Of a stretch of DNA of 64,000 nucleotides, positions 2,064 to 59,173 are shown in pieces. Both the position numbers and the translations under genes were made by a program. Below the pieces are notes generated by a model, which searched no databases, was not told the DNA's origin, and saw only the letters and a list, made by a program, of their open reading frames with translations. The stretch comes from an uncultured virus (IMG/VR IMGVR_UViG_3300034062_006192) (Duplodnaviria > Heunggongvirae > Uroviricota > Caudoviricetes). Location: the IMG/VR virus record IMGVR_UViG_3300034062_006192, one strand, 5' to 3'. The first letter of the stretch is position 1. Each line of letters opens with the position of its first letter.

Positions 2064-4164
2064 TCAGGGAGCCACAGAGCGCCCGCAGGCCATCGATCCG
2101 TTGCTGGAGCTTCCTCGGATGAGCTCGGCGATCGGCGGCCGCGGCCTGGTAGGCCTCCTGGAGCAGCCGCTGGATTCGCTCATCGCGGCTGTCGGTGCGG
2201 TTGTTGGGACCTGGGAACTTCTCCGCTTTGACCCGCGCAAGCAAAGCATCGAACATCGGCTCCATCTCTTCCGCCTGCTTGCGGGTGGGCCACAGCTCAT
2301 GTCCAGTAGGTTGGGTCAGGTAGGTGTTAACCCGTTTGGCCTTATCCAGCTTCAGCTGGACGTGGGCCTCGAATGCCCTGGCAAACATCTCCTCGCGGCT
2401 CGTCCAGTAGTCAGCGCTGATGCCTAAGCCGCCCTTCTTCATGCTCCGCACTGCCACCTGGACCTGATCTGCAAAGCCTGACTTGATCATCGACCACTGC
2501 ACCTGGTTCATGGACTCGATCAGCTCGGGGGTGCCTCTGTTCTGCGAAACGAAACCAGTGCCGCCTGCTGCGTAGTTGTCCAGCGCGTGCGCCCATTCGT
2601 GGGCAAAGGTGCCGACGCCGTTCTTGCGGGTGAGGTTGATCACCTTCAGGTCAGGCTCGAAGTGCGCCATGGCACCGCCTCGACCACGTGCACCAATAGC
2701 CAATCCCAAGGTGCCGTTTAGGCCAACTGCTCGGTCAGGCAGACCGGTCATGTCTGCCAGATCAACCATGGCTTCAGCGGCTTTCTGGACGTGGTGGCGG
2801 CGCTCATCGTCGGTGACCGAGTTGCCGTACTGCAGGCCGCGGAAGCCGAGCTTGTTGACGATGGTGTCGGTGGCGGCCTGGGCGGTGCTTCCAACCGAGC
2901 GGCCACCGACGCGGCGCTCTCCGGCCACGTAGAGGTCGGCGGCGCTGAATCGCTTCTTGCCACCCCCCTCCTTCCCGAAGGCGCTGCCGACAGTGGCGCC
3001 TTCCAGAATTTTCGTGCCGGTTTCCACGGCACGGGCCATAGATTTGCCTGCGTCAGATAAACCGGTTTCCGTTTTTAAGAACTTGGCGAACTCATTCATC
3101 TGCCCGTAGACAGTTGACGTCGAGCGCCCCGACATCATCAGTCGTTTCTGCATAGGCACCAGGGCATTAGCGGCTGGATTGAATGAATCTCTATAGGTCC
3201 TTGTATAGCCAGAACCCTCCAGGCCGCGGATGCGGTCGATGATGCCCCCAACTCTTTGCCCCAATGCCATGCGGAGCTTCCCGGGTGGCATGTCTTTGTT
3301 TTCTTCTACAAATGTACGAACTTCCTGAAAGGCGTCAAAGTATTGCTTGCGCACTGTTTTGGCGTCGACAGCTTGCTCGTCAGAAGTTGGTTTGCGGCCC
3401 GTGGCGCGGTCATACTCTGCGCTGTTCCGCTTACGCCGAGCGACGCCTTCGGTGTAGCTCTCAACGTCTTTTGCCGCAAGGTTTGGGAATGTCTTGAGGC
3501 TGTAGTGGGCCTCGAGGCGCGCAAGCACGTTCCCCTCATTGACACCACTGATCAGGTCCGTCGGGAAGTTCTTCATCAGGATGTCCCTGGTGAGGATCTT
3601 CTCCACTTGGCCACTGGCTTCGGCCTCCTCGATCGTTCTGAAAGCGTTGCGCCTGTGGCGGGCGGAGTCGACGATGTCCTCTCCTGCGTTGCCCACGGCC
3701 GAGGCCCGGGCGAACTCGTAATCCGGATCGCCTTCCTTGGCTGCCCGATCGGCCTCTCCCCTTGGCGTGCCGGCCGGGGCCTTGCCAGTGCTGGAGGGGG
3801 GCGTGGCCGCCTTGGCTGCTGCGGCCTCAGCCGCTTGCTTCTCTGCTGCTGCCTTGGCCTTCTCAGCGGCCACCTGCTGGCGCCCGCTGCGGAGCTGGCC
3901 CGCCTTCTCCCCCCGGCGGGTGGCGATCGCCCCGGCCAGCTCACCGGCCTCCTTCTGCCGCACCTGTGCAATCCCCCGCTGAGAGGAGGCCCCGCCGGCG
4001 GCAAGCGCGAGCAAGCGCTTCATGCGCTCCTTCCCCATCGCCGTTCGGGGAGTGGTGCGGCATTCCTTCCGCAAGCTGATGCAGGCGCTGCCGCAGCCGT
4101 AGCCGGTGCTGCACTTCTTCCGCAGGGCATCGAGTCGGTGCTGTAGCGAAACCGCCAGGCTCAT
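2056..4164 (-). CDS. large polyvalent-type protein: N-terminal Cys4 module plus C-terminal LPD1-like / zincin-like domain
   Basis: FRGLQYGN...LNGTLGLAIGARGRGGAMAHFEPDLKVINLTRKNGVGTFAHEWAHALD...YWTSREEMFARAFEA matches LPD1/DarA-like domains; translationally coupled to portal and gpF. Confidence 0.8.
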   Translation of the reverse strand: MSLAVSLQHRLDALRKKCSTGYGCGSACISLRKECRTTPRTAMGKERMKRLLALAAGGASSQRGIAQVRQKEAGELAGAIATRRGEKAGQLRSGRQQVAAEKAKAAAEKQAAEAAAAKAATPPSSTGKAPAGTPRGEADRAAKEGDPDYEFARASAVGNAGEDIVDSARHRRNAFRTIEEAEASGQVEKILTRDILMKNFPTDLISGVNEGNVLARLEAHYSLKTFPNLAAKDVESYTEGVARRKRNSAEYDRATGRKPTSDEQAVDAKTVRKQYFDAFQEVRTFVEENKDMPPGKLRMALGQRVGGIIDRIRGLEGSGYTRTYRDSFNPAANALVPMQKRLMMSGRSTSTVYGQMNEFAKFLKTETGLSDAGKSMARAVETGTKILEGATVGSAFGKEGGGKKRFSAADLYVAGERRVGGRSVGSTAQAATDTIVNKLGFRGLQYGNSVTDDERRHHVQKAAEAMVDLADMTGLPDRAVGLNGTLGLAIGARGRGGAMAHFEPDLKVINLTRKNGVGTFAHEWAHALDNYAAGGTGFVSQNRGTPELIESMNQVQWSMIKSGFADQVQVAVRSMKKGGLGISADYWTSREEMFARAFEAHVQLKLDKAKRVNTYLTQPTGHELWPTRKQAEEMEPMFDALLARVKAEKFPGPNNRTDSRDERIQRLLQEAYQAAAADRRAHPRKLQQRIDGLRALCGSLNG

Positions 4165-6128
4165 CCTTCTGCCCCATCCCCCGCAAGGTAGGCATCACAC
4201 AGGGCCCCCATCGCCACAAGGTCAAGGGCATTGATCTGGCGGATTGTGGGCTCGACGCCGATGGCATCACGGATCCCGCGCTGGTGCTGGTGCCCCATGG
4301 CCAGCAGGTAGGCGCCGCTGCTGGGCTCGAACACCTCCCAGGCGCCGCTCAGATCCGGACCCACCGCCACCGGGTAGGGCAGGGTCTGCCCGTAGGGGCC
4401 CATCAGGCGGCCGATGCCGGGGCCATCCATGCGGATCGACACCCCGAAGATCTGATGGATCTGGCCGGCGGCATCGCTGCGGGGCTCCTCATCCCGTCGG
4501 CGCTTGCGGCGGCCACGGTGCTCGGTGATCTGCTCGGCTAGTGCCTGGGCCCGCTCTTCGCAGGCATCACAGCAGGGCTCATCGGCGGCATCGTTGCGGG
4601 GCGGCGTCTGGGGCGGCGTGGCGCCCTCCAGCCCAGCATCACCGCCTGTGGCCGGAGCCTCCCCGGGGGTCGCTGCCGGGCCCCCCTCAAGGGTGCCGCC
4701 GAACTCCACCGGGGCCTCCTGCTTCGGCTGCGGGATGGATCCATCGTCCTCCCGATTCAACAGGGTGGTGTCCATGCTGAAGCGGGGCTTCCCGAAGCGG
4801 GCCAGGGCCACCTCGTTGGGCTGCAGCACACCGGCCTGGATGTACTGGGCGTCGGCTGTGGCGACCTTCGACCGCAGCTCAGCCTGTTCGTCTTCCGTGG
4901 GGGTGTAGGTGGGCCGGAAGGTGATCTCCCAGTCGGCGGGGGGGGCTTTCCCTTTCCATGGGCCTTCGGCGCAGGCCATCACCAACTCGTAGACCCGCCG
5001 CAGAGGCTCTTTGAGGTGCTGGGCCTGCCAGTCGGCCACCTCATTGCCAAAAGCGGCCTGCTCACTGCGGCCATCGGCCCCCAGGCCGGAAGGTGACTCA
5101 CCCCACAAAAGGGTGTGGGGGAGGCCTGATGCGCCGGTGATCTCGCTTTTAAGGTTGGCGATGATGTCGGCGATGCCGGCTGCCGAGCGATTGAGGTTGG
5201 TGAGCTCCTCGTTGTCGCTTAGGAGGTAGGCGCCGATGGTGCTGCGGGCCAGGGCGTTGGTCTGCAGGCGCTGGCGGAGCACATCTTCCCCACCTTTGGA
5301 AAGCATGTTGGTCAACCCCGGCAGCTTGTGCACCACCAGGTCGAAGTCGTGGAGGATGTCCGACGCCGATTGCTGGCCGGTCTCCCACCGCTTGAAGACA
5401 TCCCAGACCAGGTCCACCACGGAGACCCCCCACCCCTGCCGCTCCTGCTGTGACCGCCAGGAGCAGGGGAGCCCCTCGATGCGGATCACCCGGCTGCTGT
5501 GGATCTCAATTTGGGTGGCTTCGGTGAGGCCCAGGCCAGCACTGGTTACCACCTTGCTGCCGGCCTGATCGTTGAGCTTCTGCAGCTCCTGATCGGCCTG
5601 AGTCCAGAACCAATAGCTTTCCGGCTCGCCGATGCCGGACCAGCCGGCGGCGGGGTAGAGACGCCAACGATCGATCGGGTAGAAGCCGTGGATGGTCCGG
5701 AGCCGCTTGAGGTTCAGAGGCTTGTCGATCGGGGTGCGGTCGTCGGCGATCAGCACCAGGGCGCCACCGCCATAGAGGCGGCTGTAGGTGGCGGCCGCGG
5801 CCAGGCCCTGGCGGAGGTGGAGCTTTTCGGTCCAACCCACGACGTCATCGAGCTGGGCCTTCATGCGGCTGGAGGTTTCATCCCCCACCGACAGGTCCCA
5901 GCCGCTGCGGGTGCCCTGCTGGGGGAGTTTCTCCACGATCCGGCGGATCAGCCAGGACTGCTCATAGAGGGCATCGACAGCAGATTCAGAGAGGATCCGG
6001 CTGCGCTTGACGCCGATCGCTTCGTTTCGGTCCTTCGCGGTGCCCAGGCCGGTGAGGACGTTGATCAGGGCGCCATCAAGCCGCCACTCAGATCGGGAAT
6101 CAGCGGAGCTCAGGAAACCAATCGACAC
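4161..6128 (-). CDS. phage portal protein (DUF1073 type) with C-terminal extension
   Basis: LYEQSWLIRRIVE, SRLYGGGAL, IHSSRVIR, GLPHTLLWGESPSGL motifs; sits between terminase and gpF. Confidence 0.9.
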   Translation of the reverse strand: MSIGFLSSADSRSEWRLDGALINVLTGLGTAKDRNEAIGVKRSRILSESAVDALYEQSWLIRRIVEKLPQQGTRSGWDLSVGDETSSRMKAQLDDVVGWTEKLHLRQGLAAAATYSRLYGGGALVLIADDRTPIDKPLNLKRLRTIHGFYPIDRWRLYPAAGWSGIGEPESYWFWTQADQELQKLNDQAGSKVVTSAGLGLTEATQIEIHSSRVIRIEGLPCSWRSQQERQGWGVSVVDLVWDVFKRWETGQQSASDILHDFDLVVHKLPGLTNMLSKGGEDVLRQRLQTNALARSTIGAYLLSDNEELTNLNRSAAGIADIIANLKSEITGASGLPHTLLWGESPSGLGADGRSEQAAFGNEVADWQAQHLKEPLRRVYELVMACAEGPWKGKAPPADWEITFRPTYTPTEDEQAELRSKVATADAQYIQAGVLQPNEVALARFGKPRFSMDTTLLNREDDGSIPQPKQEAPVEFGGTLEGGPAATPGEAPATGGDAGLEGATPPQTPPRNDAADEPCCDACEERAQALAEQITEHRGRRKRRRDEEPRSDAAGQIHQIFGVSIRMDGPGIGRLMGPYGQTLPYPVAVGPDLSGAWEVFEPSSGAYLLAMGHQHQRGIRDAIGVEPTIRQINALDLVAMGALCDAYLAGDGAEG

Positions 6129-6165: not shown

Positions 6166-7092
6166 TTGGCTATATCACTGGCCAACGACGTTACGCGCCA
6201 TAGGCTGGGGCCGAACATCAGCCCTAGTCCATTGGGCGCCCCGCTCGATTCGCTGCTCGGTTCGTATGCGCGGCTGCCCATCCCCTCCAGGGAGGAGCAG
6301 GTGTTGCTGGGTCGGGCCATCCGGAAGTGGCTGGACTGGGATCCAGCTCCAGAGAAGGCCCCGCCTGGTGTGCAGCGGGCCGGCCGGCGGGCGCGGGATC
6401 GGATGGTGGCCCGCAACATGCTGCTGGTGGCGACACAGGCCCGCTCGTTTTCGGTGTCCTCGGTGGTGGCCCTGGAGCCGCAGGACCTGATCCAGGAGGG
6501 TGCGATCGGGCTCACCAGGGCGGCGGAGAAATACGACCCCACGCGGGGCTTCAGTTTCGCGACCTATGCGGTTCCGTGGATCCGGCAGTCGATGACCCGG
6601 CTGGTGCACACCTCCGGATCGATTCGACTCCCAGTGAAGCGGGCATCGAAGATGCACCAGCTGCGCCAATGGGTGGAGGCCTTCACAGCCCGTGAGGGCC
6701 GATCACCGACGGATCAGGAGGCAATGGAGGGGATGGAGATCAGCGCTGCTGACCTGCTGATCCTGCGGCAGGCGGCCGCCGTGCGGCAGGTGGTTTCGCT
6801 CGATGCCTTGGATTGCGATCGCGAGGGGCGCGGGGATACCCTCCTCGCCACCATGGCGGCACCAACGACAACAGAGGACATTGCAAACAGAGAGCGTGCC
6901 CAAGTGTTGGAGGCGCTGAAACCCTGGCCTGATCTGCAGGAGATCATGGAGCGCCGGCTGGACGGGCACAGCTGCCAGGAGGCCGGCCTGGCGATGGGGC
7001 TCACCCGATTGGCCGCCGAACGGCTGTGGGAGCAAGCACTGGCGATGGCGCAGCACCTGATGGGCGGCGATCACTGGCACGGCAGGTGCTAG
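6166..7092 (+). CDS. RNA polymerase sigma-70 family factor (RpoD/SigA-like)
   Basis: Region 1.2 and region 2 motifs (RARDRMVARNMLLV, DLIQEGAIGLTRAAEKYDPTRGFSFATYAVPWIRQ); region 4 degenerate; start codon uncertain. Confidence 0.9.
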   Translation: MAISLANDVTRHRLGPNISPSPLGAPLDSLLGSYARLPIPSREEQVLLGRAIRKWLDWDPAPEKAPPGVQRAGRRARDRMVARNMLLVATQARSFSVSSVVALEPQDLIQEGAIGLTRAAEKYDPTRGFSFATYAVPWIRQSMTRLVHTSGSIRLPVKRASKMHQLRQWVEAFTAREGRSPTDQEAMEGMEISAADLLILRQAAAVRQVVSLDALDCDREGRGDTLLATMAAPTTTEDIANRERAQVLEALKPWPDLQEIMERRLDGHSCQEAGLAMGLTRLAAERLWEQALAMAQHLMGGDHWHGRC

Positions 7093-7256
7093 CTGGAGCT
7101 GTTCGTGACCGAGATTGAGATCGAGCAGCAGCTGCTCCTGTTCCCCCAGGCCGCGCCGGTGCTGTGGCGAAAGCGTCGGCGTCGCTCCTGAGATGGGATA
7201 GCACTGATGCGCTAGTTGGGAGTAAGTTCATCCCGGTATAACGACGTTGTGAATCC

Positions 7257-7544
7257 ATGGCGGAAACGGCCAACGGCCCTGGCCCTGCAGGCGAGATCCA
7301 GACCGAGCGCGGGCTGAGCCAATCACAGCAGCTCACGCTGAACGCCGTTAGGCAGTACATCGATCAGCACGGCATCCCGCCGAGCTTTCGCGACGTGATG
7401 GTGGTGCGGCAGCTGGCCTCCACCAGCACAATCCAGGCTCATTTCAAGCACCTCCAGGCAGCCGGGGCCATTGATGTGCGCGATGGAGTGCCTCGGTCCG
7501 TGCGGGTGCTGTGGCCCCGGCCAAAGCGTCGGAGGGGCGGTTGA
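7257..7544 (+). CDS. LexA-type DNA-binding domain protein lacking the S24 peptidase domain
   Basis: QQLTLNAVRQYIDQHGIPPSFRDV...STSTIQAHFKHLQAAGAI...PRSVRVL. Confidence 0.85.
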   Translation: MAETANGPGPAGEIQTERGLSQSQQLTLNAVRQYIDQHGIPPSFRDVMVVRQLASTSTIQAHFKHLQAAGAIDVRDGVPRSVRVLWPRPKRRRGG

Positions 7545-7834
7545 TGGGCTGGGGCGACTGGAGGGTGCCCGAGCTCACAGAGGAGGTTGAGTTTCGGCTC
7601 AAGGTGCAGGAACTGATGGTGCGAAGCACGTTCAGGCGCAATCCTGAGGCCGTGCTGCACCAGGCACTGCTGCTGGCCCGGGAGAAGGCAATTCTTGAAC
7701 GAACCGTGGAGAAAGCCCACCGGCGAATTATGGAGCTTGAGGTGGCAGCCGCTCTGGGTCAAGCAGGAGGGCGTAGCGAGGAAGGGCAAGCCAAGCGCGC
7801 CTGGCGGCCGTGGTGGTTTTGTCTGAAGCGATGA
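7544..7834 (+). CDS. hypothetical coiled-coil protein
   Basis: TGATG coupling to the LexA-like gene; begins MGWGDWRVPELTEE. Confidence 0.7.
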   Translation: MGWGDWRVPELTEEVEFRLKVQELMVRSTFRRNPEAVLHQALLLAREKAILERTVEKAHRRIMELEVAAALGQAGGRSEEGQAKRAWRPWWFCLKR

Positions 7835-8313
7835 TCCAGCCCGCCTACCTGGCGCAGCTGCGGCGAGAGCTGCGGGCGGAGCAGGCAATGACGCTGGTGC
7901 AGATCGAGCAGCTGGTGCCCGGGTGGTGGCCAACGCTCACCGATCTGGCGGAACAGCTGGGCAGCGAGCGGGCGACCCTGAACCGTTGCCTGTCCCGGCT
8001 GGAGCGGCAGGGCCTGCTGCGGCGGGTGACCCGGGGCAACGGGGGGGGCACCTGGATATGGTGGGTGAAGCGCTCCGCCGATGACCAGCCCAACGACATC
8101 GAGGCGCCTAGGTGGCGGCTGAGGGATCAAGCGGGTGGGCGGGCGCAGGAGATCATCGTCGGCCAGGAGCGGGCCTTCGCTTCAGCCAAGGGGATCCCGT
8201 TCAACACGGTGCGCAACTTTCTGGCTGGCCACCGGCCGCTGCTGGCGAAGCGGTGGAAACTGGTCAGCTCGCCCCTGCAGCTCGTTGACGAGAGCGAGCA
8301 ACTCGCTGCCTGA
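7831..8313 (+). CDS. winged-HTH DNA-binding protein
   Basis: TLTDLAEQLGSERATLNRCLSRLERQGLLRR; ATGA overlap with the upstream gene. Confidence 0.8.
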   Translation: MIQPAYLAQLRRELRAEQAMTLVQIEQLVPGWWPTLTDLAEQLGSERATLNRCLSRLERQGLLRRVTRGNGGGTWIWWVKRSADDQPNDIEAPRWRLRDQAGGRAQEIIVGQERAFASAKGIPFNTVRNFLAGHRPLLAKRWKLVSSPLQLVDESEQLAA

Positions 8314-8473
8314 GGTCTTCCCGGCCGGCTGGCGTGACAGCCCAGCAGCGGGAGCAGAGGCCATCACGGCCCGCACCACGGATCTGCTTCCCGCAGGTGG
8401 GGCACAGCCGCACCGGGGGGAGGGCGCCGGCCAGCCGGGCCCGGTAGCGGGCCCACTTTCTGGAGTCAGGCAT
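8264..8473 (-). CDS. small basic Cys4 zinc-finger protein (paralog of 59224..59430)
   Basis: MPDSRKWARYRARLAG..CPTCG..LCSRCW..TPAG; a clear paralog lies elsewhere in the window. Confidence 0.75.
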   Translation of the reverse strand: MPDSRKWARYRARLAGALPPVRLCPTCGKQIRGAGRDGLCSRCWAVTPAGREDLRQRVARSRQRAAGAS

Positions 8474-8867
8474 GGCGGCGGCGGCCCCTGGCGCGGCGTG
8501 CGCGCCGCTTGCGGCCGATGGGGCTGCCTCGCTTGGCTTCAATAATTAGGCGTTCAAGCACGGCCACAGTGCGATGGGCTGCAATGCCAAAGGGGCGGAA
8601 GGCTACCGCCAGCGGATCGGTGTCGGCCCCTAGGCCGGAGGGGGACTCACCCCATATCAGGGTGTGAGGCAGGCCGGAGGCGCCGGTGATCTCGCTTCTG
8701 AGGTTGGCGATCATGTCGGCGATGCCGGCTGCCGAGCGGTTGAAGTTAGTGAGATCTTCGCCCTCGCTCAGTTCGATAGCGGCGGTTCGCTGCCACTGAT
8801 CCAGCAGCTGTTGCTGCTCCTGGTTGAGAGGCGGGGGGAGGCCCGGCGGCCCGTGGGGGTCAGGCAT
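8466..8867 (-). CDS. chimeric protein containing a 50-aa portal fragment
   Basis: 43/50 aa identical to the portal segment LSDNEELTNLNRSAAG...GLGAD; Arg-rich tail. Confidence 0.7.
   Translation of the reverse strand: MPDPHGPPGLPPPLNQEQQQLLDQWQRTAAIELSEGEDLTNFNRSAAGIADMIANLRSEITGASGLPHTLIWGESPSGLGADTDPLAVAFRPFGIAAHRTVAVLERLIIEAKRGSPIGRKRRARRARGRRRHA
8623..8771. repeat. diverged copy (~85% nt) of portal segment 5074..5222
   Basis: Manual ungapped alignment, about 22 mismatches in about 149 nt. Confidence 0.9.
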
Positions 8868-9081
8868 CGTCAGCCTCTGCCAGCAGGCGGGCGGCTCTCG
8901 CAGCGGAGACCACACCGGAGTTGTTGCCATTCTCCAAAATTGCCAATGCCAAAACTTGAGAACGTTGCAGGCCCAAGGGGCTGTATTGGTCAATGAAGCT
9001 GCCTAGCCTGAGCACGGCTTCTTCAAGCTCTTGGCGATCTTGCTGTTGCTGAAAGTAATCGCGGGGGGTGGGGTCAGGCAT
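8860..9081 (-). CDS. hypothetical protein
   Basis: Starts MPDPTP; ATGCCTGA overlaps at both ends. Confidence 0.65.
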   Translation of the reverse strand: MPDPTPRDYFQQQQDRQELEEAVLRLGSFIDQYSPLGLQRSQVLALAILENGNNSGVVSAARAARLLAEADDA

Positions 9082-9256
9082 CAACAATCTCAACCATGGC
9101 GGGCCAATCGGGCATGGTCGGGTCGTAGGCGTCTTCGAGAGCCGGCCGCAGCTCGGCGCGGGTGACGCGGATCACGCCGCCATCAGCGCCCCATTCATGG
9201 AAATGGCCGCCTAGGTGCGTGCGGGCCAGGATTTTGTCAACCGTTGGGACAGTCAT
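9074..9256 (-). CDS. hypothetical protein
   Basis: Ends AYDPTMPDWPAMVEIVDA, homologous to mini-ORF 59163..59231. Confidence 0.65.
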   Translation of the reverse strand: MTVPTVDKILARTHLGGHFHEWGADGGVIRVTRAELRPALEDAYDPTMPDWPAMVEIVDA

Positions 9257-9311
9257 TGAAGGCAATGCACTGGGGATGGGTTGCCGTATGGGCTCCGGCG
9301 GGCCGTGGGGG

Positions 9312-9467
9312 TCAGGAGTAAGGGCAATCAGGGTTGCCGGTGGCCGTGTAACCCAGCTCAGCAGCGCAGCGTGCGAGGCGCACGTCCAGCTCGCGGGACT
9401 TGCGCTGAACCATGGCCCTGATCTGAGCTTCGATCTGAACCAGGTGCGCGGGGGTGGGGGTGGTCAT
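9312..9467 (-). CDS. small hypothetical protein (51 aa)
   Basis: MTTPTPAHLVQIEAQIRAMVQRKSRELDVRLARCAAELGY...; first ORF after the putative promoter; not in the supplied track. Confidence 0.55.
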   Translation of the reverse strand: MTTPTPAHLVQIEAQIRAMVQRKSRELDVRLARCAAELGYTATGNPDCPYS

Positions 9468-9489
9468 TGCTGGGGAGCGATGGGACGGG

Positions 9490-9530
9490 CCGGGGCGACT
9501 CCCCCGATGCCCATACTGTAACGCACAAGT
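9490..9530 (-). promoter_or_regulatory. putative cassette promoter/operator
   Basis: TGTGCGTTACAGTATGGGCATCGGGGGAG with -10-like TACAGT; a similar element lies at 58752. Confidence 0.5.
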
Positions 9531-9560
9531 AGCAGGATGGACGGGCCGGCATGGGACGGT

Positions 9561-9845
9561 TCACCGGCCGCGACACTCAATCCTGCTAGCGAGAGCAACC
9601 CGATGAGGAAGGATCTCCCATAGGCGCGGCCGCTTCTCCAGCACGGCGGGGCACTGGCGCAGTAACCGGGCAGCCACGGCGGCCCCCAGGTGAAACACCT
9701 GGCCATTGGAATTGTGATGGCGCCCGTCAGGCCATAAACGCTCGGCAAGCGTGTTGGCTCGCAGCGTCGTTACGCCTTCACGGTGCATCTTCCCAATTTC
9801 GCGCATCACCACATCAGCGGTTGCGCGGTTTTGATGCGTTCTCAT
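9561..9845 (-). CDS. hypothetical protein
   Basis: MRTHQNRATADVVMRE...; tightly packed after the upstream ORF. Confidence 0.6.
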   Translation of the reverse strand: MRTHQNRATADVVMREIGKMHREGVTTLRANTLAERLWPDGRHHNSNGQVFHLGAAVAARLLRQCPAVLEKRPRLWEILPHRVALASRIECRGR

Positions 9846-9846
9846 G

Positions 9847-10167
9847 TCATGGGAAATAGATCGTGATCCAGTCCCACCTGACCTGGAACCACAGCCAGCA
9901 GCACATCCACTCGTAGGGCTCACGCCTTGGAATCAAGGGCAAGCCCCTGAACCTGCCTGCTTCAGGGAAGAACGTCACCGAGACCCGAACCGCCATCACG
10001 GGCTTCCCGTCAAGCTGGGGTCGACGGAACCAACCCCACTGAAGGCCGGAGCCGAAAAGCATGTGCCAGGCAAGGCAGGCCAGCCAGAGCCGCACCACAA
10101 TTCCCGTGAATGCCTGCACCACGGCGCTGGCGGTCAGCAATCCGTGGTGAACGTCCAGGAGGGTCAT
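9847..10167 (-). CDS. hypothetical Trp-rich protein, possibly membrane-associated
   Basis: ATGA overlap; hydrophobic N-terminus. Confidence 0.55.
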   Translation of the reverse strand: MTLLDVHHGLLTASAVVQAFTGIVVRLWLACLAWHMLFGSGLQWGWFRRPQLDGKPVMAVRVSVTFFPEAGRFRGLPLIPRREPYEWMCCWLWFQVRWDWITIYFP

Positions 10168-10391
10168 GGCTCGCGCCCCTCCTCTTTCGATGGCCCATAG
10201 GGGCACGAGCAAGCCAAACCGAAGAAGGAGTGTTCGGTCATGTCGTGCACCACGGCATCTCCGCAAACGATGCACTGCTTCATCTCGTCATTGATGCAGC
10301 CTCGGACACGGCTGATCGTGGGGCCGCCGACTGCCGCGCAGTCTTTGGGGCGGAAGAGGGGCATCATCAGGTACTGATGTTCTGGGTTCAC
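10164..10391 (-). CDS. hypothetical Cys-containing protein
   Basis: GTGA overlap with the terL stop; CIVC..CSC. Confidence 0.55.
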   Translation of the reverse strand: MNPEHQYLMMPLFRPKDCAAVGGPTISRVRGCINDEMKQCIVCGDAVVHDMTEHSFFGLACSCPYGPSKEEGREP

Positions 10392-11944
10392 ACCATCTTG
10401 ACCCATTCGGCCATCATCGGTCGAGTTCGGGCGCCGGCTTCACAAGCTGCAGCCAGGCTCATAACTGCGTCGTCGTGGCAGCCGGCTGCGGCCTCGCGGT
10501 TGCCGTCGGCCCCTTGGCGGAAGGTGCGCATCTGCTTGCCGTAGATGTCGTCCGGGGGGATCCCCAGCTCGCCCTGCTCCAACAACAACAGGACCCGGTC
10601 GGTCATGCGGATTTTCGAGGGCTTGGAGGTGGCGAACTCTTCGATCGGCACCCCGGGCCGGAGGATCGACAGGGCCTCCCCCACGTTGGCCCCGACGCCG
10701 TTGTTCTCGATCGCCACCATCTCGGGGCTGTACTCGTCGATCAGGCGGGCGGTGCGCTGCAGGCCGTAGTCGCGGCTGCGGCGGGCGTCGTTGAAACGGG
10801 CCACCACCTGCCAGGGGTTGGAGGTGATGTCGAGCACGGTGGTGACCCATTCGTCGTCGCCGGAGCCGTTGGGGTCGATCCCGATCACGTAGCTGTGGCC
10901 CCTGGTGGCCAGCTGCAGGCCGCCGATGGCCTCGGCCGCCTCGATCAGGTCGTGGGGGTAGACCTCAGCGTCAGTGGCGGCGAAGTCGAGCTCAAACTCC
11001 TGCCGGTAGCGCTGCTGGGTGAGCTGAAACTTGCGGCGGGTGTTCTCTGGATAGTCCGGATCCAGCGAATAGATCGGGTGCTGGCTCCAGTGGATCGCCA
11101 CCTTGGCGAACTGGCCATCGGGAGAACAGCGCAGCGTGGGGATGTCGTTGACGAAGCTGTCGCCGACCTGCACCTCGCCGTGGTCGGTGCTCCAGTGCTC
11201 GTAGAACCGGCCGCTGCGGCCGTTGGGGGTGGAGACCCACACGGCCCTGGCCCGGGCCCCCAGCAGGGAAAGGGTGGGCATGGCACCGGTCTCGATGCCG
11301 GCCAATTTCTCGATGAAGGCACCCTCATCGAAAAGGACCATTGAGGCCGACGGGATGCCCCGGGCGGCCCGCTCGGTGGGGGGCAGGAAGTGGAGGCTGC
11401 CGCGGCCCTGGAAGACCAGCTTGCGGGCGCTGTCCTTCGGCAGGGGAGGGCAGGCGGAGCCCAGGGAGGCGGCCTGGCCCTTGATCCGTGCCGCCAGCTC
11501 GCTTGCGTCCTCCCCGGTCTTGCTGAAGATGATCCCGACCCACGCCGGCCGTTGGATGGCCTGCTGGAGCATGTAGGAGATGATCGTCTCGGAAACACCG
11601 GTCTGGCGGCTCTTGTTGACGTAGGTGTTCTGGTGGCCCCGGATCGTGCGGATCAGGTCCAGCTGGTAGTCCCAAGGCCTGAAGCGCAGGTACTTGCCCT
11701 GGGAGGCGATGTAGGTTCGGGCGGCAAAGTCGGGCCAGCGCTTCGGGAGCTGGTCCCATGGCAGCACCTGCTGGCTCTGGCTGAAAATCCCCCGGCGGGG
11801 CACGTAGCGCAGCAGGGGGCGCACCACCCGCTTCGGCTTGGGGAGGTGCAGGCCTGCGGGGCCCTTGCGGGGCCAGGAGAAACAGGGGGTCTGGGTGCGC
11901 AGCTGGGCGTCGTATTCGGCCCAGGCCTCGTCATCCCAGGCCAT
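10388..11944 (-). CDS. terL: terminase large subunit
   Basis: Walker A KSRQTGVS, Walker B VLFDEGAF, STPNG coupling motif, nuclease motifs IGIDP and HDDAVMSLA. Confidence 0.95.
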   Translation of the reverse strand: MAWDDEAWAEYDAQLRTQTPCFSWPRKGPAGLHLPKPKRVVRPLLRYVPRRGIFSQSQQVLPWDQLPKRWPDFAARTYIASQGKYLRFRPWDYQLDLIRTIRGHQNTYVNKSRQTGVSETIISYMLQQAIQRPAWVGIIFSKTGEDASELAARIKGQAASLGSACPPLPKDSARKLVFQGRGSLHFLPPTERAARGIPSASMVLFDEGAFIEKLAGIETGAMPTLSLLGARARAVWVSTPNGRSGRFYEHWSTDHGEVQVGDSFVNDIPTLRCSPDGQFAKVAIHWSQHPIYSLDPDYPENTRRKFQLTQQRYRQEFELDFAATDAEVYPHDLIEAAEAIGGLQLATRGHSYVIGIDPNGSGDDEWVTTVLDITSNPWQVVARFNDARRSRDYGLQRTARLIDEYSPEMVAIENNGVGANVGEALSILRPGVPIEEFATSKPSKIRMTDRVLLLLEQGELGIPPDDIYGKQMRTFRQGADGNREAAAGCHDDAVMSLAAACEAGARTRPMMAEWVKMV

Positions 11945-15428: not shown

Positions 15429-15973
15429 GGCCGCACCTCGCGGTCTTCGGGCTCGACCCACTTCAGGCCGATTCGATCAAACAGCTCGCGCTCTGTGCGG
15501 CAAGGCACGACAGGGCCAAGGCTGTAGATGCCTTCCGTGTTGTTCACGCGACGCAGCAACCCACCTTCAGAGCGATAGCCGGCACGAACCCAAGCCGGTG
15601 CCAGCACGGTGCGGCTCCATTCTGCCGAGCCGGTCCTGATCGCCAGCTGAAGGCCGTAGCCATCCGGGTGAGGCATGAACAGATCGAGTTTCATCCCTTG
15701 CCACGGCAAGACCCGCTGGGTGTAGCGGCAGGGCAGCTCGCCTTTCACCTTCTCCCACTGGTTCACCACGGTGGCGATGCCAGAGCAGAACAGGGGAGAG
15801 GCGTCGTAGGGCTTGGGGATGCAGACGATCTCCAGGTCGCCGATGGTGGGCCGGCGGCGGCGAATGCTGCCGGCGATGTCGATGCGCTCGCAGTGGGGCT
15901 TCAGCAGCTCCAGCACCTTGGCGGCGACACCATCGGCGGTGGCCAGGGACAGGCGGGTGGTGGTGGTGCTCAT
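15425..15973 (-). CDS. minimal X-family DNA polymerase (palm and thumb only)
   Basis: IAGSIRRRRPTIGDLEIV, KLDLF, RTGSAEW, TERELFDRIGLKWVEPEDRE. Confidence 0.9.
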   Translation of the reverse strand: MSTTTTRLSLATADGVAAKVLELLKPHCERIDIAGSIRRRRPTIGDLEIVCIPKPYDASPLFCSGIATVVNQWEKVKGELPCRYTQRVLPWQGMKLDLFMPHPDGYGLQLAIRTGSAEWSRTVLAPAWVRAGYRSEGGLLRRVNNTEGIYSLGPVVPCRTERELFDRIGLKWVEPEDREVRP

Positions 15974-16402
15974 CCCTTCACGTCCTCCAGCAGGTCGAGG
16001 CGGAGGGTGGGGGTCACGGGGTTAGTGCAAGTGGGCATTGGTGGCGGGGCGGTTTGGCTTGGAATGTTCTGAGCCGTTAGTTCCTAGACGGGAAAAGTAA
16101 TCTTGCTTGTATCTAATGTGCGACCTTATATACAATGTTTGGATCAAATACTTCTCTCATTGGAAAGGATTTAATTGTGCCATTCCAGCCGACAATGGCA
16201 TTGCCATTTTCGTATCGAAAAAACTCGTACGTGTTTTCATCGCTGGCGTGCGCTGCTGTGTCGCCTGGAGACAGGAGACGCATTTCGGCAAGCACGATCT
16301 CAATAGCTGAATCAATAATCTGATCGTTGTTCATGTTCGTATCAAAGCGGTGTGGTTTAGGATTGGTGGTGCTCATCCCTTCACGTCCTCCAGTAGGTCG
16401 AG
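15961..16402. repeat. 39-bp direct repeat pair (15961..15999 and 16364..16402) flanking a low-GC insert
   Basis: TGGTGGTGCTCATCCCTTCACGTCCTCCAG(C/T)AGGTCGAG, 38/39 identical. Confidence 0.9.
16113..16376 (-). CDS. hypothetical protein (low-GC insert)
   Basis: 87-aa ORF that starts inside the repeat copy. Confidence 0.65.
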   Translation of the reverse strand: MSTTNPKPHRFDTNMNNDQIIDSAIEIVLAEMRLLSPGDTAAHASDENTYEFFRYENGNAIVGWNGTIKSFPMREVFDPNIVYKVAH

Positions 16403-16654
16403 CAGGAGCATGCGGCGGGTGTCAGAGGGCCGGGGGTATTGCTCCAGGCGATGTAGCAACAGGGCCATCACGCGACGGCGCTCCATCTGCTGGCCATCGG
16501 CCAGTGCCTTGCGGAGCAGGACATCCCCGCTCACCTCGGCGGTGGCTGCTTCCAGCAGGTAGGCGACAGCTGCGTCCAGCTGCTCACGGGCCGCGGCCAA
16601 CGGATTGGGCTGCTGCAGCCTCGGCCAGGCGACGATCCCCTCAGCCATCTCCAT
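16373..16654 (-). CDS. hypothetical protein
   Basis: Coupled ORF with helical composition. Confidence 0.65.
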   Translation of the reverse strand: MEMAEGIVAWPRLQQPNPLAAAREQLDAAVAYLLEAATAEVSGDVLLRKALADGQQMERRRVMALLLHRLEQYPRPSDTRRMLLLDLLEDVKG

Positions 16655-17411
16655 GGCCTCCTGTTGGGTCTGACGTGATGGCGCTGGGATCCTTAACGCT
16701 CGTCTGCGCCTTTCGCTGTTGTTCTATTCCCTCCGCTCGTAGCTGGATTAGGTGCCATGCCTGAATCGATTGTTCAGGAATGCCACTTTGCCGAGCCTCC
16801 TCCATGGCGGTTTCAATCGCCTGCAGCTTAATTTGGCGTTCCCACTCGTCATAATCGTTGCCAAGCAACTCCCTTAACTTATTGTATGCCACACCATTTT
16901 GGCGCTGTTTCTTCTTCCTGTCCATCCACATTTCGTCGCACAACTCCTTTTCACTTCTTGCCGGCAGTTTGCTCGCCTTTACATTTCGGAGCTGCACACT
17001 GGCATGCGGATTCTTCCTGTTGTATTCCGAGACCATTAGCTTTGCCTCGTAGCAGAACCTGCCGATTCTGGCCAAGAGACTTCTTTGCCTGTGGATCCGG
17101 CATCGCAGCTCAGTAATGCCCGCAACCATTAAGGAAGATTTGCCTTCAATCTCCGCTTTTAGCTCGGTTAGCTTACTCTGAGCAACTACCTGAGCGTTGG
17201 CTAGATCATTGTAGAACTGTCGCAACGTCAGGATGTCCATCTGCTGGACATCAAGCAAGAATACGACCTTGTCCCAGCGATCCCAGTACATCCATGCCTG
17301 TGTGCGCTGCTTTCCCTCAGTAGTCAATTGCTCAGCGCTTACCTCCTTGTCCCTTGTCCATGTCTGTACTGTGTTTATTTTGTTTATGTTGTTGGTGTCG
17401 ATGTTTTTCAT
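16641..17411 (-). CDS. hypothetical coiled-coil protein
   Basis: TGATG-coupled start MKNIDT; low GC. Confidence 0.7.
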   Translation of the reverse strand: MKNIDTNNINKINTVQTWTRDKEVSAEQLTTEGKQRTQAWMYWDRWDKVVFLLDVQQMDILTLRQFYNDLANAQVVAQSKLTELKAEIEGKSSLMVAGITELRCRIHRQRSLLARIGRFCYEAKLMVSEYNRKNPHASVQLRNVKASKLPARSEKELCDEMWMDRKKKQRQNGVAYNKLRELLGNDYDEWERQIKLQAIETAMEEARQSGIPEQSIQAWHLIQLRAEGIEQQRKAQTSVKDPSAITSDPTGGHGDG

Positions 17412-17629
17412 CACGTTGGCCCCATCGAAGTGCTGGCCAGGGAAGGTGGGCCACCATGGCCAGGCCGCTCCCGGGTCACTCGCCAGCCCGGCATGGGCGT
17501 GGGCTGGAAGCCAACCCCCTCCACGGTGATCAGCGCTGTTGGCGATCCGATCAGGGGCAGATCGCTCTCCCGCATGCTCATCCGCTTCCACTCAGCCTGG
17601 CCCACAAACCAGACCCACACCTGCACCAT
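17411..17629 (-). CDS. hypothetical protein
   Basis: Fills the gap between coupled ORFs. Confidence 0.5.
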   Translation of the reverse strand: MVQVWVWFVGQAEWKRMSMRESDLPLIGSPTALITVEGVGFQPTPMPGWRVTRERPGHGGPPSLASTSMGPT

Positions 17630-17652
17630 GGGCGGCCGCGACTTCGTGGGGC

Positions 17653-18330
17653 TCAAAACCGCACCTCCCAGTTCATGGTTCTGGCCATGAATCGGTAGGC
17701 GTCGATCGCATCGATCCAGCAAGCCAGGGCCTTGTCCACGTCGATCATTTCCACCGTGGTGCGCTCAGAACTACAGAACAAGACGAACGCACGCCGCGGC
17801 CACCAGGAGAAGCTGTCGCCCAGCAGGGCGATCGCCGCTCCAACTTCGGCGGCAACTCGGATCGGGTCGAGCTGATCGCTGGCAGCGCTCTGACAAAGAC
17901 CAATTCCGATGTCCCCGCCATCGGAGAAGCGGACCAGCAGCTCTGCTGTGGTGGCTATAGGCAGGCGGCGGTGACGCACATGAACCGGTGCTGCCAGCAC
18001 TTCGAGTCTGGCCCAGAAGGGATGGCCGATCAGCGGGGCGATGGTGCTGAGCTGATCGGTGAACGGCGCCACAGCGGGCGACCAGGGCCCTGCTGCGCTC
18101 ACATCCGGGTTGTGGAGACTGTTGGCATAGGCAACGCAGGCGCGCAGCACCACCGGGTTGCGGGCCAGCTGCAGGGCACGATGGGGATAGACCCGGTCGA
18201 GGATGCCACTGGCGGAGAACAGCTCCTCACCGCTGGGGGTGATGTAGCCACCGGCCGCGGCCGGTTGAACGGGCTGGTCCTGTGCTGGTATCCAGGTGGT
18301 GGGTTTAGGTCGGAACAGGGTGCTCACCAT
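17653..18330 (-). CDS. hypothetical protein, possibly degenerate PD-(D/E)XK/Cas4-like exonuclease fold
   Basis: YITPSGEELFSASGIL resembles the YxTPxG..SVTTIL start of phage exonucleases; catalytic residues not evident. Confidence 0.5.
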   Translation of the reverse strand: MVSTLFRPKPTTWIPAQDQPVQPAAAGGYITPSGEELFSASGILDRVYPHRALQLARNPVVLRACVAYANSLHNPDVSAAGPWSPAVAPFTDQLSTIAPLIGHPFWARLEVLAAPVHVRHRRLPIATTAELLVRFSDGGDIGIGLCQSAASDQLDPIRVAAEVGAAIALLGDSFSWWPRRAFVLFCSSERTTVEMIDVDKALACWIDAIDAYRFMARTMNWEVRF

Positions 18331-58867: not shown

Positions 58868-59173
58868 ATGCCTGTAACGCACACAAAATATCTTGCCTTC
58901 ATGGAAGGCTACAAAGAAGTGGTTGCACCTTTCGAGCAAGAGTTTATTCGCTTGCGCGAGACGGAAGACAACCCAGGCATGGACTACATGCAGTTTATTG
59001 AGCGAATGGCCATGGTTGAGCGGCACCGTGACATTGCAATCGCCGAGTACGCTGGAATCCCGTCCACTAGACAAGCTCTAGATGAGTTGCACGCCGCCAC
59101 TTGCGGTAGCCGCAGGTCCGCTTATGCCTACATAGTTCTTGACGAACTGCCAGATGATTACTGTGCCGACTGA
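58868..59173 (+). CDS. hypothetical protein (low GC)
   Basis: MPVTHTKYLAFMEGY... Confidence 0.7.
   Translation: MPVTHTKYLAFMEGYKEVVAPFEQEFIRLRETEDNPGMDYMQFIERMAMVERHRDIAIAEYAGIPSTRQALDELHAATCGSRRSAYAYIVLDELPDDYCAD

What the first reader, a model, noticed from the sequence alone, without database searches (positions are those of the whole stretch)
8466..8867. A captured portal fragment expressed in frame inside a small accessory gene
Seen: 8623-8771 matches portal 5074-5222 at about 85% nt and 43/50 aa, ungapped, with mostly synonymous or conservative changes. It is embedded between an unrelated Pro/Gln leader and an Arg-rich tail. The divergence suggests origin from a related phage's portal, or selection on the peptide. 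Inference: a dominant-negative portal mimic against competing phages, a decoy for portal-sensing immunity (Avs-type sensors are known to detect portals), or a neutral recombination scar.
Basis: partly seen in the sequence, partly recalled or inferred. Interest (0 to 1): 0.75.

Follow-up and report, generated by a model that had tools for sequence, protein, structure and literature searches.

The report
Portal gene piece inside small phage gene
A lake phage carries a 50-codon piece of a portal gene spliced in frame into a small accessory gene; it most likely is a tolerated recombination scar rather than a weapon or decoy.

Summary
Window 8623-8771 repeats portal 5074-5222 (149 nt, 85%, same strand, same frame, 43 of 50 residues). 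The host ORF (8466-8867, minus strand, 133 aa) is a true gene. Its C-terminal third belongs to an unnamed family of small phage proteins (39 representative clusters, 53-137 aa) that end in a nearly invariant IGRKRRxRRARG motif.

The portal piece replaces the variable middle. It occurs in only two sequence variants among about 15 billion proteins: this phage and one relative, L005. The piece is closer to the relative's portal (92.7% nt) than to the resident portal (85.2%). Its 3' junction lies in a 4-6 nt microhomology.

Constraint looks relaxed:
- In the two copies, dN/dS is about 0.4 and neutrality is not rejected. True portals give 0.04-0.2 in most pairs over the same codons.
- Residues that are invariant or nearly invariant in the portals have changed.
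- One copy starts with TTG.
- A usually conserved Pro of the family core is deleted.

Expression is untested, and a complex prediction gave no verdict.

Best reading (about 0.6): an in-frame illegitimate-recombination scar in a hypervariable cassette array. A portal mimic or decoy remains possible (about 0.1-0.15) but has no positive support.

The parts
8466..8867 (-). Chimeric small gene, 133 aa (P0001), ATG start at 8867 and TGA stop at 8466-8468
   Evidence: Translation. GC at codon positions is 0.716/0.545/0.754, the coding-like pattern of the portal gene. An intact 133-aa homologue exists in a second phage (P0003/L005).
8772..8867 (-). Leader, codons 1-32 (MPDPHGPPGLPPPLNQEQQQLLDQWQRTAAIE); origin unresolved
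   Evidence: It is not significantly similar to the family N-termini or to the portal stretch upstream of the piece: 68 and 63 of 1000 shuffles reach the real score. The MPDP start is shared with neighbouring cassette genes.
8622..8771 (-). Portal-derived segment, codons 33-82 (exactly 50 codons)
   Evidence: It matches Pfam PF06381 and phrog_146 (portal) only partly and below the curated cut-off (28.3 bits against 33.8). In the tree it is nested among the portals.
8469..8621 (-). C-terminal module of the Arg-tail small-protein family, codons 83-133 (TDPLAVAFRPFGIAAHRTVAVLERLIIEAKRGSPIGRKRRARRARGRRRHA)
   Evidence: Family found; alignments. A metagenome contig of a non-chimeric family gene diverges from the window exactly at 8621/8622 (run X10 record 5).
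8469..8519 (-). Nearly invariant polybasic motif IGRKRRARRARGRRRHA (residues 117-133)
   Evidence: Invariant columns I117-R130 in alignment A2. The 80% consensus over 48 non-chimeric members reads IGRKRR.RRARGR. Synonymous differences occur within the tail between the window and L005.
5074..5222 (-). Corresponding stretch of the resident portal gene (residues 303-352)
4161..6128 (-). Portal gene, 655 aa
   Evidence: PF06381 at 214.4 bits and phrog_146 at E 1.4e-85. Solved relatives include the E217 gp19 and Pam3 portals.
8264..8473 (-). Downstream gene, 69 aa, with a basic N-terminus and a zinc ribbon; its ATG overlaps the chimera's stop (ATGCCTGA)
   Evidence: Sequence. Weak zinc-ribbon Pfam matches, below the cut-offs. 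The gene is present in many relatives.
8860..9081 (-). Upstream cassette gene Y, 73 aa (MPDPTPRDYF...); its stop overlaps the chimera's ATG in the same ATGCCTGA junction
   Evidence: Found only in the window's own phage among the loci held.
9074..9265 (-). Cassette gene X, 63 aa; in L007 it directly precedes a non-chimeric family gene
   Evidence: 85.7% aa identity in L007-L009, L055 and L056.
10388..11944 (-). Large terminase gene, heading the same-strand run of small genes that ends with the chimera and the zinc-ribbon gene
   Evidence: PF03237 and phrog_2.
6166..8313 (+). Opposite-strand regulatory module between the portal gene and the chimera: sigma-70-like factor 6166-7092, LexA-type DNA-binding protein 7257-7544, MarR-like HTH protein 7810-8313
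   Evidence: Pfam matches.

Best explanation
The ORF is a real small accessory gene of a lake-water phage. An illegitimate, microhomology-mediated recombination replaced its variable middle with exactly 50 codons of a portal gene from the same phage clade. The donor resembled the L005 portal more than the window's present portal.

The insertion stayed in frame. It was tolerated because this part of the family is free to vary. The two-gene block (chimera plus zinc-ribbon gene) then spread, or was kept, by recombination at the conserved ATGCCTGA gene junctions of a hypervariable cassette array.

The portal piece itself has no portal-related job. Any function of the protein rests in the conserved polybasic C-terminal module, which I infer binds nucleic acid from its composition alone. 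That function may be decaying in this lineage.

Shown: the homology, the junctions, the distribution and the relaxed constraint. Inferred: neutrality of the piece and the role of the tail.
For: 1. Single origin and narrow spread.
- Only the P0001/P0003 cluster carries a portal match among the 39 representative clusters of the family.
- 0 of 48 non-chimeric members match any PHROG family.
- 0 of 8 tested non-chimeric members have a credible Pfam match; the only listing is PF00872 at E 0.2.
- The 90%-identity cluster holds 4 entries, which are only two full-length variants.
- A scan of JGI metagenomes added only an identical copy (L054).

2. Donor.
- The piece is 92.7% identical to the L005 portal, 92.0% to L040, 90.7% to L012 and 85.2% to the window's own portal.
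- The two chimera copies are sisters, nested among these portals.

3. Junctions.
- The 3' crossover lies in GCCG(AC), shared by the portal and by a non-chimeric family gene (L018).
- Metagenome contigs of a non-chimeric family gene and of the portal part from the window at 8621/8622 and 8623.
- The insert is 150 nt, so the frame is kept.

4. Relaxed constraint.
- dN/dS between the two chimera copies is 0.40 in the piece (5 synonymous, 6 non-synonymous; one-sided p 0.13 against neutrality) and 0.43 over the whole gene (p 0.059).
- dN/dS of a chimera against the nearest portal is 0.60-0.79.
- True portals give 0.04-0.2 over the same 50 codons in 13 of 15 close pairs.
- Residues that are invariant or nearly invariant in the portals have changed: K to R, L to I, I to M, and D to Y in L005.

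5. Signs of slack in the host gene.
- ATG has become TTG in L005, with a distant Shine-Dalgarno-like site.
- A 3-residue deletion removes a Pro present in 40 of 48 family members.

6. Setting.
- In 9 loci examined, the gene upstream of the zinc-ribbon gene is of four or more unrelated kinds. All are joined by ATGCCTGA or GTGCCTGA.
- The 95.1% block shared with L005 (8873-8240) starts at that junction, while the flanks are 84-88% identical or unrelated.
Against: - The piece has stayed open and ungapped in both lineages. Most replacements are conservative and dN/dS is below 1, so weak purifying selection on the peptide is not excluded. With about 11 differences the test has little power either way.
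- The chimera block is more similar between the two phages (95%, dS 0.09) than the portal genes (dS 0.25). That could mean recent spread under selection as well as chance recombination.
- Hypervariable arrays of small genes are where phage anti-defence and exclusion genes tend to sit (recalled, not tested).
- Expression was not measured.
Confidence: 0.6

Rival explanations
1. Portal mimic or portal-targeting module. The portal-derived helix and loop dock onto portal subunits or rings, or onto a portal partner such as terminase. That would either poison assembly of a co-infecting relative or bring the polybasic tail to the portal vertex.
For: - The piece covers the best conserved stretch of the portal in this clade.
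- By the order of predicted helices (low-confidence model) and the canonical portal topology (recalled), it would be the second stem helix plus the tunnel loop. Those elements pack between neighbouring subunits and line the channel. In phage 812 the tunnel loops contact DNA (passages read in PMC12886913).
- The gene lies on the same strand downstream of the large terminase gene.
- dN/dS is below 1.
Against: - The core of the piece has the same amino-acid sequence in the phage's own portal as in nearly all relatives. A mimic would therefore hit self as much as competitors.
- The chimera has lost several residues that are invariant or nearly invariant in those portals.
- The piece is a single helix and loop, without the wing, clip or crown domains.
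- Only two variants exist.
Confidence: 0.12
2. Decoy or blocker for a host immune sensor that detects portal protein (Avs4- or Avs11-like, or a motif-reading sensor).
For: - Portal-sensing STAND proteins exist (Avs4, Avs11; passages read in PMC13581612).
- The gene sits in a hypervariable array of small accessory genes.
Against: - In the same passages, Avs proteins are said to recognise whole folds through broad shape-complementary interfaces. Fifty residues of helix and loop are unlikely to reproduce that.
- Binding normally activates these sensors (recalled), so a simple mimic would trigger rather than block them.
- The host and its defences are unknown.
- Constraint on the piece is relaxed.
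Confidence: 0.05
3. The whole ORF is a decaying, non-functional remnant. The insertion inactivated the family gene, and the frame is still open only because too little time has passed.
For: - ATG has become TTG in L005.
- A Pro present in 40 of 48 family members is deleted.
- Whole-gene dN/dS is 0.43 and not significantly below 1 (p 0.059); in the tail it is 0.65.
Against: - The polybasic motif is intact in both copies, with three synonymous differences inside the tail.
- There is no stop or frameshift across 5% nucleotide divergence.
- The overlapping start/stop junctions on both sides are kept.
Confidence: 0.18
4. The repeat acts at the nucleic-acid level. For example, read-through from the converging plus-strand regulatory module would make RNA antisense to the chimera and partly complementary to portal mRNA. 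Alternatively, the repeat serves as a recombination substrate.
For: - Plus-strand genes 6166-8313 converge on the chimera.
- No terminator-like site was found in 7900-10500.
- The two copies share long exact runs (alignment).
Against: - There is no evidence of any such transcript.
- The insert is exactly in frame and reads as a portal peptide, which an RNA role does not require.
- Recombination between the direct repeats would delete the portal's N-terminal half.
Confidence: 0.03

Closest known systems
Mosaic phage genes made by illegitimate recombination (the Hendrix-Hatfull picture of phage mosaicism; recalled, no paper read here)
   Same: A new junction at a few bases of microhomology. It survives because the frame is kept and the host gene tolerates it. 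It lies in a region where related phages differ gene by gene.
   Different: The inserted DNA is an internal piece of an essential structural gene of the same phage clade. The genome therefore carries a 149-nt direct repeat of its own portal gene 3.5 kb away.
Phage portal proteins, Pfam PF06381 (Phage_portal_3) / phrog_146
   Same: Residues 16-84 align to the middle of the portal profiles. 43 of 50 residues are identical to the resident portal.
   Different: Only 68 of 357 profile positions are covered and the score is under the curated cut-off (28.3 against 33.8 bits). The rest of the portal profile is unmatched. It is a fragment, not a portal.
Unnamed family of small phage proteins ending in IGRKRRxRRARG (defined here: 39 representative clusters)
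   Same: The C-terminal module and the polybasic motif, the small size, and the position directly upstream of a basic zinc-ribbon gene with an overlapping ATGCCTGA junction.
   Different: The middle part is replaced by portal sequence. A 3-residue deletion removes the usually conserved Pro. The family has no Pfam or PHROG match and no known function.
Phage and satellite proteins that interfere with a rival's packaging machinery, and phage anti-defence decoys or mimics (recalled classes, for example satellite proteins that bind small terminase, or DNA mimics such as Ocr)
   Same: Small accessory proteins, encoded in variable regions, that act by resembling or binding a core component. This is what the chimera would work like under the mimic or decoy readings.
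   Different: No sequence or structural relation was found, and no binding or phenotype was shown here. In my two literature searches none of the listed papers concerned a portal-fragment mimic or decoy; I opened only one of them.

Membership tests
Phage portal protein (PF06381 Phage_portal_3) | Match to the family profile at or above Pfam's gathering score, over most of the profile | tested here: not met
   28.3 bits against a cut-off of 33.8. Residues 16-82 align to profile positions 219-286 of 357. The true portal scores 214.4 bits over positions 3-356.
Phage portal protein (PF06381 Phage_portal_3) | Complete portal fold (wing, stem, clip, crown) able to form a dodecameric ring | tested here: inconclusive
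   At 133 aa, of which 50 are portal-derived, a full fold is impossible by length. The AlphaFold2 model has a mean pLDDT of 47.9, so nothing can be said about the local fold.
Arg-tail small-protein family (unnamed, defined here) | C-terminal motif G-x-x-[IL]-GRKRR-x-RRARG at or near the C-terminus | tested here: met
   RGSPIGRKRRARRARGRRRHA at residues 113-133. These columns are invariant in A2 and form the 80% consensus over 48 members.
Arg-tail small-protein family (unnamed, defined here) | Two predicted helices before the motif, joined at a conserved Pro (..AAFRPxGIAARRAxAxLEPLxRLIIEA..) | tested here: not met
   The first helix is present (AVAFRPFGIAAHRTVAVLE). A 3-residue deletion removes the Pro found in 40 of 48 non-chimeric members.
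Arg-tail small-protein family (unnamed, defined here) | Small size (53-137 aa) and position directly upstream of a basic zinc-ribbon gene with an overlapping start/stop | tested here: met
   133 aa. The ATGCCTGA overlap with gene 8264-8473 is seen. The same arrangement occurs in L005, L013 and L018, and the same gene order with a longer overlap in L007.
Anti-defence decoy / portal mimic | Binding to a portal partner or a portal sensor, and a phenotype that depends on the portal-like part | not testable with these tools
   The host and its sensors are unknown. This needs bench work.

The most novel reading that the evidence does not exclude
The Arg-tail family is a set of small effectors in which a conserved polybasic tail rides on nucleic acid (or on the packaging machinery) and a freely exchangeable head does the work. 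In this phage the head has been replaced by the portal's stem-helix and tunnel-loop peptide. That would make a portal mimic that docks on portal rings or on a portal-reading host sensor. It would be a phage-encoded structural-protein mimic built from the phage's own portal gene.
Probability: 0.1. Interest if true: 0.75.

Novelty: new member of a known kind. Interest (0 to 1): 0.3.

Why it matters
If the best reading holds, this is a clean, datable example of how phage genes are remodelled. It shows a 150-nt piece of an essential structural gene moved in frame into an accessory gene through a few bases of microhomology. The piece was then carried between genomes on a two-gene cassette with conserved overlapping junctions. 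That is useful as an illustration, but not surprising.

Two by-products may be worth more:
- A previously undescribed family of small phage proteins with a nearly invariant IGRKRRxRRARG tail and no known function.
- A hypervariable array of 'MPDP' mini-genes joined by ATGCCTGA start/stop overlaps.

If the piece were instead a working portal mimic or decoy, it would be a new kind of phage counter-measure or interference protein. It would also make portal sensing directly testable with a natural minimal peptide.

Tried and rejected
- **Whole family as an old portal fragment.** I suspected this because AAF...EPL.R is collinear with portal 357-380 and a tblastn hit to the PaV-LD portal covers residues 33-114. 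A profile-profile comparison of 13 non-chimeric members against 9 portals gave probability 0.1% and E 0.66. Rejected.
- **Origin of the leader (codons 1-34).** HMMs of the family N-termini and of portal 262-304 scored the leader no better than 68 and 63 of 1000 shuffles. Unresolved.
- **Structure of the chimera.** AlphaFold2 with 15 rows gave a mean pLDDT of 47.9. Not usable beyond helix propensity.
- **Structure of the portal.** AlphaFold2 with 9 rows gave a mean pLDDT of 40.3. Too poor to map the piece, so the stem-helix/tunnel-loop assignment rests on helix order and recalled topology.
- **Domain boundaries from papers.** I read passages on the Pam3, P7-1, Pa193, E217 and phage 812 portals. 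None gave residue boundaries usable for this portal. The portal review PMC6947915 is not held.
- **Complex prediction.** Two portal cores (residues 40-445) plus the chimera gave no answer: score 0.01 against a mark of 0.32, and the controls were not run. This is no evidence either way.
- **Expression.** No RNA holder was listed among 24 lake-water or freshwater DNA runs.
- **Contigs of four runs laid on the window.** They showed exact copies, the portal paralogue, and a non-chimeric family gene. They gave no further chimera variants.
- **ESM Atlas look-up of a non-chimeric member.** No hit reached 0.9 and there were no named relatives.
- **PDB by sequence with the chimera.** No match.
- **Longer relatives of the family.** One 210-aa protein without a Pfam domain.
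- **INPHARED phages.** No nucleotide match. Protein matches were only to cyanophage portals.
- **Earlier findings of this scan.** None.
- **Promoter and terminator scan of 7900-10500.** Nothing found.
- **Ancestral-state counts of changes on the chimera branch.** I used pairwise counts instead.

Full report
**1.

Window 8623-8771 and 5074-5222 are a direct repeat of 149 nt at 85% identity. It is the second longest repeat family in the window (D2; alignment; blastn 85.2%, E 8.7e-44). Both copies lie on the minus strand in open frames.

The longer frame (4161-6128, 655 aa) is the portal gene:
- PF06381 at 214.4 bits and phrog_146 at E 1.4e-85.
- Its solved relatives are the E217 gp19, Pam3 and other portals.

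The shorter frame (8466-8867, 133 aa, P0001) reads the repeat in the portal's own frame. Codons 33-82 match portal residues 303-352 at 43 of 50 positions without a gap. BLASTP of the whole proteins gives E 6e-28. The small protein matches the portal profiles only in part and below Pfam's cut-off: 28.3 against 33.8 bits, residues 16-82 on 68 of 357 profile positions.

**2. The host ORF is a real gene of an undescribed family**

A search among proteins of similar length found 14 relatives. One of them, P0003, is a 133-aa protein 92% identical to P0001 that also carries the portal piece. The other 13 (76-118 aa) lack it. They share the C-terminal part ..AAFRPVGIAARRAVARLEPLCRLIIEAERGSPIGRKRRARRARGRR.. 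and often an MPDP start.

A profile of these 13 members found 39 representative clusters (E up to 0.001; 14 up to 1e-10) among 1.84 billion representatives. All are 53-137 aa long. The 80% consensus over 48 non-chimeric members is P...G..IGRKRR.RRARGR.

No known family matches the non-chimeric members:
- 0 of 8 tested have a credible Pfam match; the only listing is PF00872 at E 0.2.
- 0 of 48 match a PHROG family.
- The ESM Atlas gives only unnamed neighbours scoring under 0.9.
- A search among longer proteins found one 210-aa form without a Pfam domain.

Between the window and L005 the tail shows three synonymous differences (G114, R125, R127), so it is conserved as protein. GC by codon position in the small ORF (0.716/0.545/0.754) follows the pattern of the portal gene (0.686/0.489/0.828). 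I therefore treat 8466-8867 as a gene whose last third is the family module.

**3. The family itself is not portal-derived**

I suspected that the module after the piece continued the portal, because AAF...EPL.R has the same spacing in both and a tblastn hit to the PaV-LD portal reaches residue 114. A profile-profile comparison of the 13 non-chimeric members with 9 portals gave probability 0.1%, so I dropped the idea.

The leader (codons 1-32) could be assigned neither to the family N-termini nor to the portal stretch upstream of the piece. In 1000 shuffles, 68 and 63 reach the real score.

**4. Where the piece came from**

I fetched 44 loci with related portals (48-100% aa identity). The piece matches several of them better than the resident portal:

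| Portal | Identity to the piece |
|---|---|
| L045 | 93.0% (over 128 nt, at a contig end) |
| L005/L020 | 92.7% |
| L040 | 92.0% |
| L012 | 90.7% |
| L014 | 89.3% |
| window's own | 85.2% |

In a maximum-likelihood tree of the 150 nt, the two chimera copies are sisters. They are nested in the clade of the L005, L012, L040, window and L014 portals. L005 is the other phage that carries the chimera.

The simplest history is one capture from an L005-like portal before the two chimera copies split. Synonymous distance is 0.11-0.14 to the L005 portal and 0.14 between the two copies, against 0.40 between the window and L005 portals over the same codons.

**5. The junctions**

In gene orientation, the chimera follows the portal through ..GGGGCCGAC and then follows a non-chimeric family gene (L018) from ACCGATCAG.. 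onward. The two parents share only GCCG and AC at the crossover.

Metagenome contigs confirm the breakpoints:
- A non-chimeric family gene (upstream peptide WIVATDLHAA) leaves the window at 8621/8622.
- Portal contigs leave at 8623 and 8760.

Portal similarity starts abruptly at codon 33. The insert is 150 nt, so the frame is preserved. This is the signature of illegitimate recombination at microhomology.

**6. Distribution**

The chimera is known in two variants only:
- The 90%-identity cluster in the collection of 15 billion proteins has 4 entries. These are P0001 (16 contigs), P0003/P0052 (the same protein read with M or L at the start; 4 contigs) and a truncated copy of P0001.
- IMG/VR gave the window's phage (L003, L004; G001 is 100% identical) and L005/L006.
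- The JGI metagenome scan added one identical copy.
- 24 lake-water or freshwater DNA runs hold the stretch. Some may be the source sample or a single campaign.

**7. Selection**

| Comparison | Synonymous / non-synonymous differences | dN/dS | One-sided p against neutrality |
|---|---|---|---|
| Window vs L005 chimera, whole gene | 9 / 11 | 0.43 | 0.059 |
| Window vs L005 chimera, portal piece | 5 / 6 | 0.40 | 0.13 |
| Window vs L005 chimera, tail | 3 / 5 | 0.65 | 0.41 |
| Window chimera vs L005 portal | 4 / 7 | 0.60 | not computed |
| L005 chimera vs L005 portal | 5 / 11 | 0.79 | not computed |

Among six close true portals, the same 50 codons give dN/dS of 0-0.2 in 13 of 15 pairs; the other two give 0.24 and 0.47.

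The portals are invariant or nearly so over ..LKSEITGASG[LM]PHTLLWGESPSGLGAD... Only the 48%-identical L053 departs further. The chimeras changed K to R, L to I (window), I to M, and D to Y (L005).

So the piece is under much weaker constraint than in a portal, and neutrality cannot be rejected. Equally, with about 11 differences, weak selection cannot be excluded.

**8. Other signs of slack**

- In L005 the start codon is TTG. The nearest Shine-Dalgarno-like site is about 15 nt upstream.
- Both chimeras lack three residues of the family core, including a Pro present in 40 of 48 non-chimeric members.

**9. Setting**

The gene is the second to last of a same-strand run of small genes downstream of the large terminase gene (10388-11944). 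The run is X (9074-9265), Y (8860-9081), the chimera, and a 69-aa protein with a basic N-terminus and a zinc ribbon (8264-8473). The three junctions are the same 8-nt overlap ATGCCTGA, which holds the stop of one gene and the start, MPD.., of the next. ATGCCTGAC occurs 3 times in the window, all at these junctions, against 0.88 expected.

A plus-strand regulatory module converges on this run and separates it from the portal gene. It holds a sigma factor (6166-7092), a LexA-type DNA-binding protein (7257-7544) and a MarR-like HTH protein (7810-8313).

The zinc-ribbon gene is found in many relatives, but its upstream partner varies. In 9 loci examined:
- 3 have an Arg-tail gene: L005 (chimeric), L018 (plain) and L013 (tail only).
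- 6 have unrelated small genes: L014, L026, L015, L037, and L044/L049, which are identical.
- In every case the junction is ATGCCTGA or GTGCCTGA.

Between the window and L005, a block of 634 nt at 95.1% (8873-8240: the chimera plus the zinc-ribbon gene) begins 6 nt before the chimera's start. The flanks are 84-88% identical, and 10159-8873 is not shared apart from one 70-nt match. In L007-L009 the X gene, a plain family gene and zinc-ribbon genes lie beside a DNA methyltransferase and a sigma factor, not beside packaging genes. One metagenome contig joins 8385 to 9069, skipping Y and the chimera (short side of 36 nt, so weak).

The chimera therefore sits in a hypervariable cassette array that reshuffles at conserved junctions.

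**10. What the piece corresponds to in the portal**

The portal model is poor (pLDDT 40.3). Its predicted helices are 281-299, 316-330 and 355-386, with loops at 300-315 and 331-354. The canonical portal order, which I recall rather than tested, is stem helix, clip, stem helix, tunnel loop, long wing helix. On that order the piece would be the end of the clip, the second stem helix and most of the tunnel loop.

In phage 812 the stem crosses the capsid shell and the tunnel loops touch DNA (passages read in PMC12886913). This assignment is an inference. No paper I read gave usable residue boundaries.

**11. Weighing the readings**

Mimic against competitors:
- It cannot tell self from rival, because the core peptide is the same in nearly all portals of the clade.
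- It would probably be made together with the phage's own portal.

Avs-type decoy:
- In passages of PMC13581612, these sensors are described as enveloping the target core through broad shape-complementary interfaces. The paper contrasts them with motif readers such as Lit and CapRel.
- A helix plus a loop is a poor stand-in for a fold.
- Binding usually activates such sensors (recalled).

Neither reading has a positive result. Neither is excluded, because dN/dS is below 1, the frame is kept in both lineages, and the context is the kind where accessory functions reside.

My odds:

| Reading | Odds |
|---|---|
| In-frame scar in a gene whose function, if any, lies in the polybasic tail | about 0.6 |
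| Whole gene decaying | about 0.18 |
| Portal mimic or portal-targeting module | about 0.12 |
| Decoy | about 0.05 |
| Nucleic-acid-level role | about 0.03 |

**12. Novelty**

The chimera is a new instance of a known process, phage mosaicism by illegitimate recombination. In my two literature searches none of the listed papers concerned a portal-fragment mimic or decoy. I opened only one of them, and the library covers open-access papers and bioRxiv only.

The Arg-tail family and the ATGCCTGA cassette array appear undescribed, as far as Pfam, PHROGs and the Atlas show.

Noticed in passing
window 8465-8473, 8859-8867, 9073-9081 (minus strand); relic at about 9296-9320; also L005, L013-L015, L018, L026, L037, L044, L049: Consecutive small genes are joined by the same 8-nt overlap, ATGCCTGA (stop of one gene, start MPD.. 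of the next). ATGCCTGAC occurs 3 times in the window, all at these junctions, against 0.88 expected. In relatives the gene upstream of the zinc-ribbon gene differs from phage to phage but keeps the junction. This looks like a cassette array that reshuffles at conserved junctions.
   Followed up: partly
window 59139-59430 (plus strand): A second copy of the arrangement. A 30-aa ORF ending ..DLDA is followed by a 68-aa paralogue of the basic zinc-ribbon protein that starts MPDP (45% identity to 8264-8473). A 39-nt inverted repeat links 9090-9128 and 59180-59218.
   Followed up: partly
proteins P0004-P0051 (metagenomes); window 8469-8621: An undescribed family of small phage proteins (39 representative clusters, 53-137 aa) with variable N-terminal parts and a nearly invariant C-terminal motif G-x-x-IGRKRRxRRARG. 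There is no Pfam or PHROG match and the function is unknown.
   Followed up: partly
window 4021-4146, 60016-60141, 61387-61512 (minus strand): A 126-nt repeat (75% and 64% identity) encodes a Cys-rich motif (..KKCSTGYGCGSACISLRKECR..). It lies at the N-terminus of the 702-aa protein after the portal gene (which has an LPD1 domain) and twice inside the 812-aa ORF 59440-61878.
   Followed up: no
window 6166-8313 (plus strand): A regulatory module on the opposite strand splits the packaging genes: a sigma-70-like factor, a LexA-type DNA-binding protein and a MarR-like HTH protein lie between the large terminase run and the portal gene. The sigma factor gene starts 38 nt from the portal start, in the divergent direction. 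The MarR-like gene is absent from L005.
   Followed up: partly
window 20134-20240: Three tandem copies of a 35-nt G/C-rich unit (GGGTCCCCCCCAGGGGGAGTCCCCTCTGGGGGGAG and variants), each internally palindromic-looking. Seen in the repeat scan only.
   Followed up: no
window 15961-16012 and 16364-16415: A 52-nt direct repeat at 88% identity, 403 nt apart, in a region of lower G+C (0.56 in 16001-18000). Not examined.
   Followed up: no
window 4161-6128, portal residues about 480-655: The portal has a C-terminal extension of about 170 residues beyond the Pfam portal domain. It holds a CC..C..C stretch, an Arg/Lys-rich helix (RGRRKRRRDEE) and a beta-rich domain that was the only well-predicted part of the model (pLDDT 70-83).
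   Followed up: no
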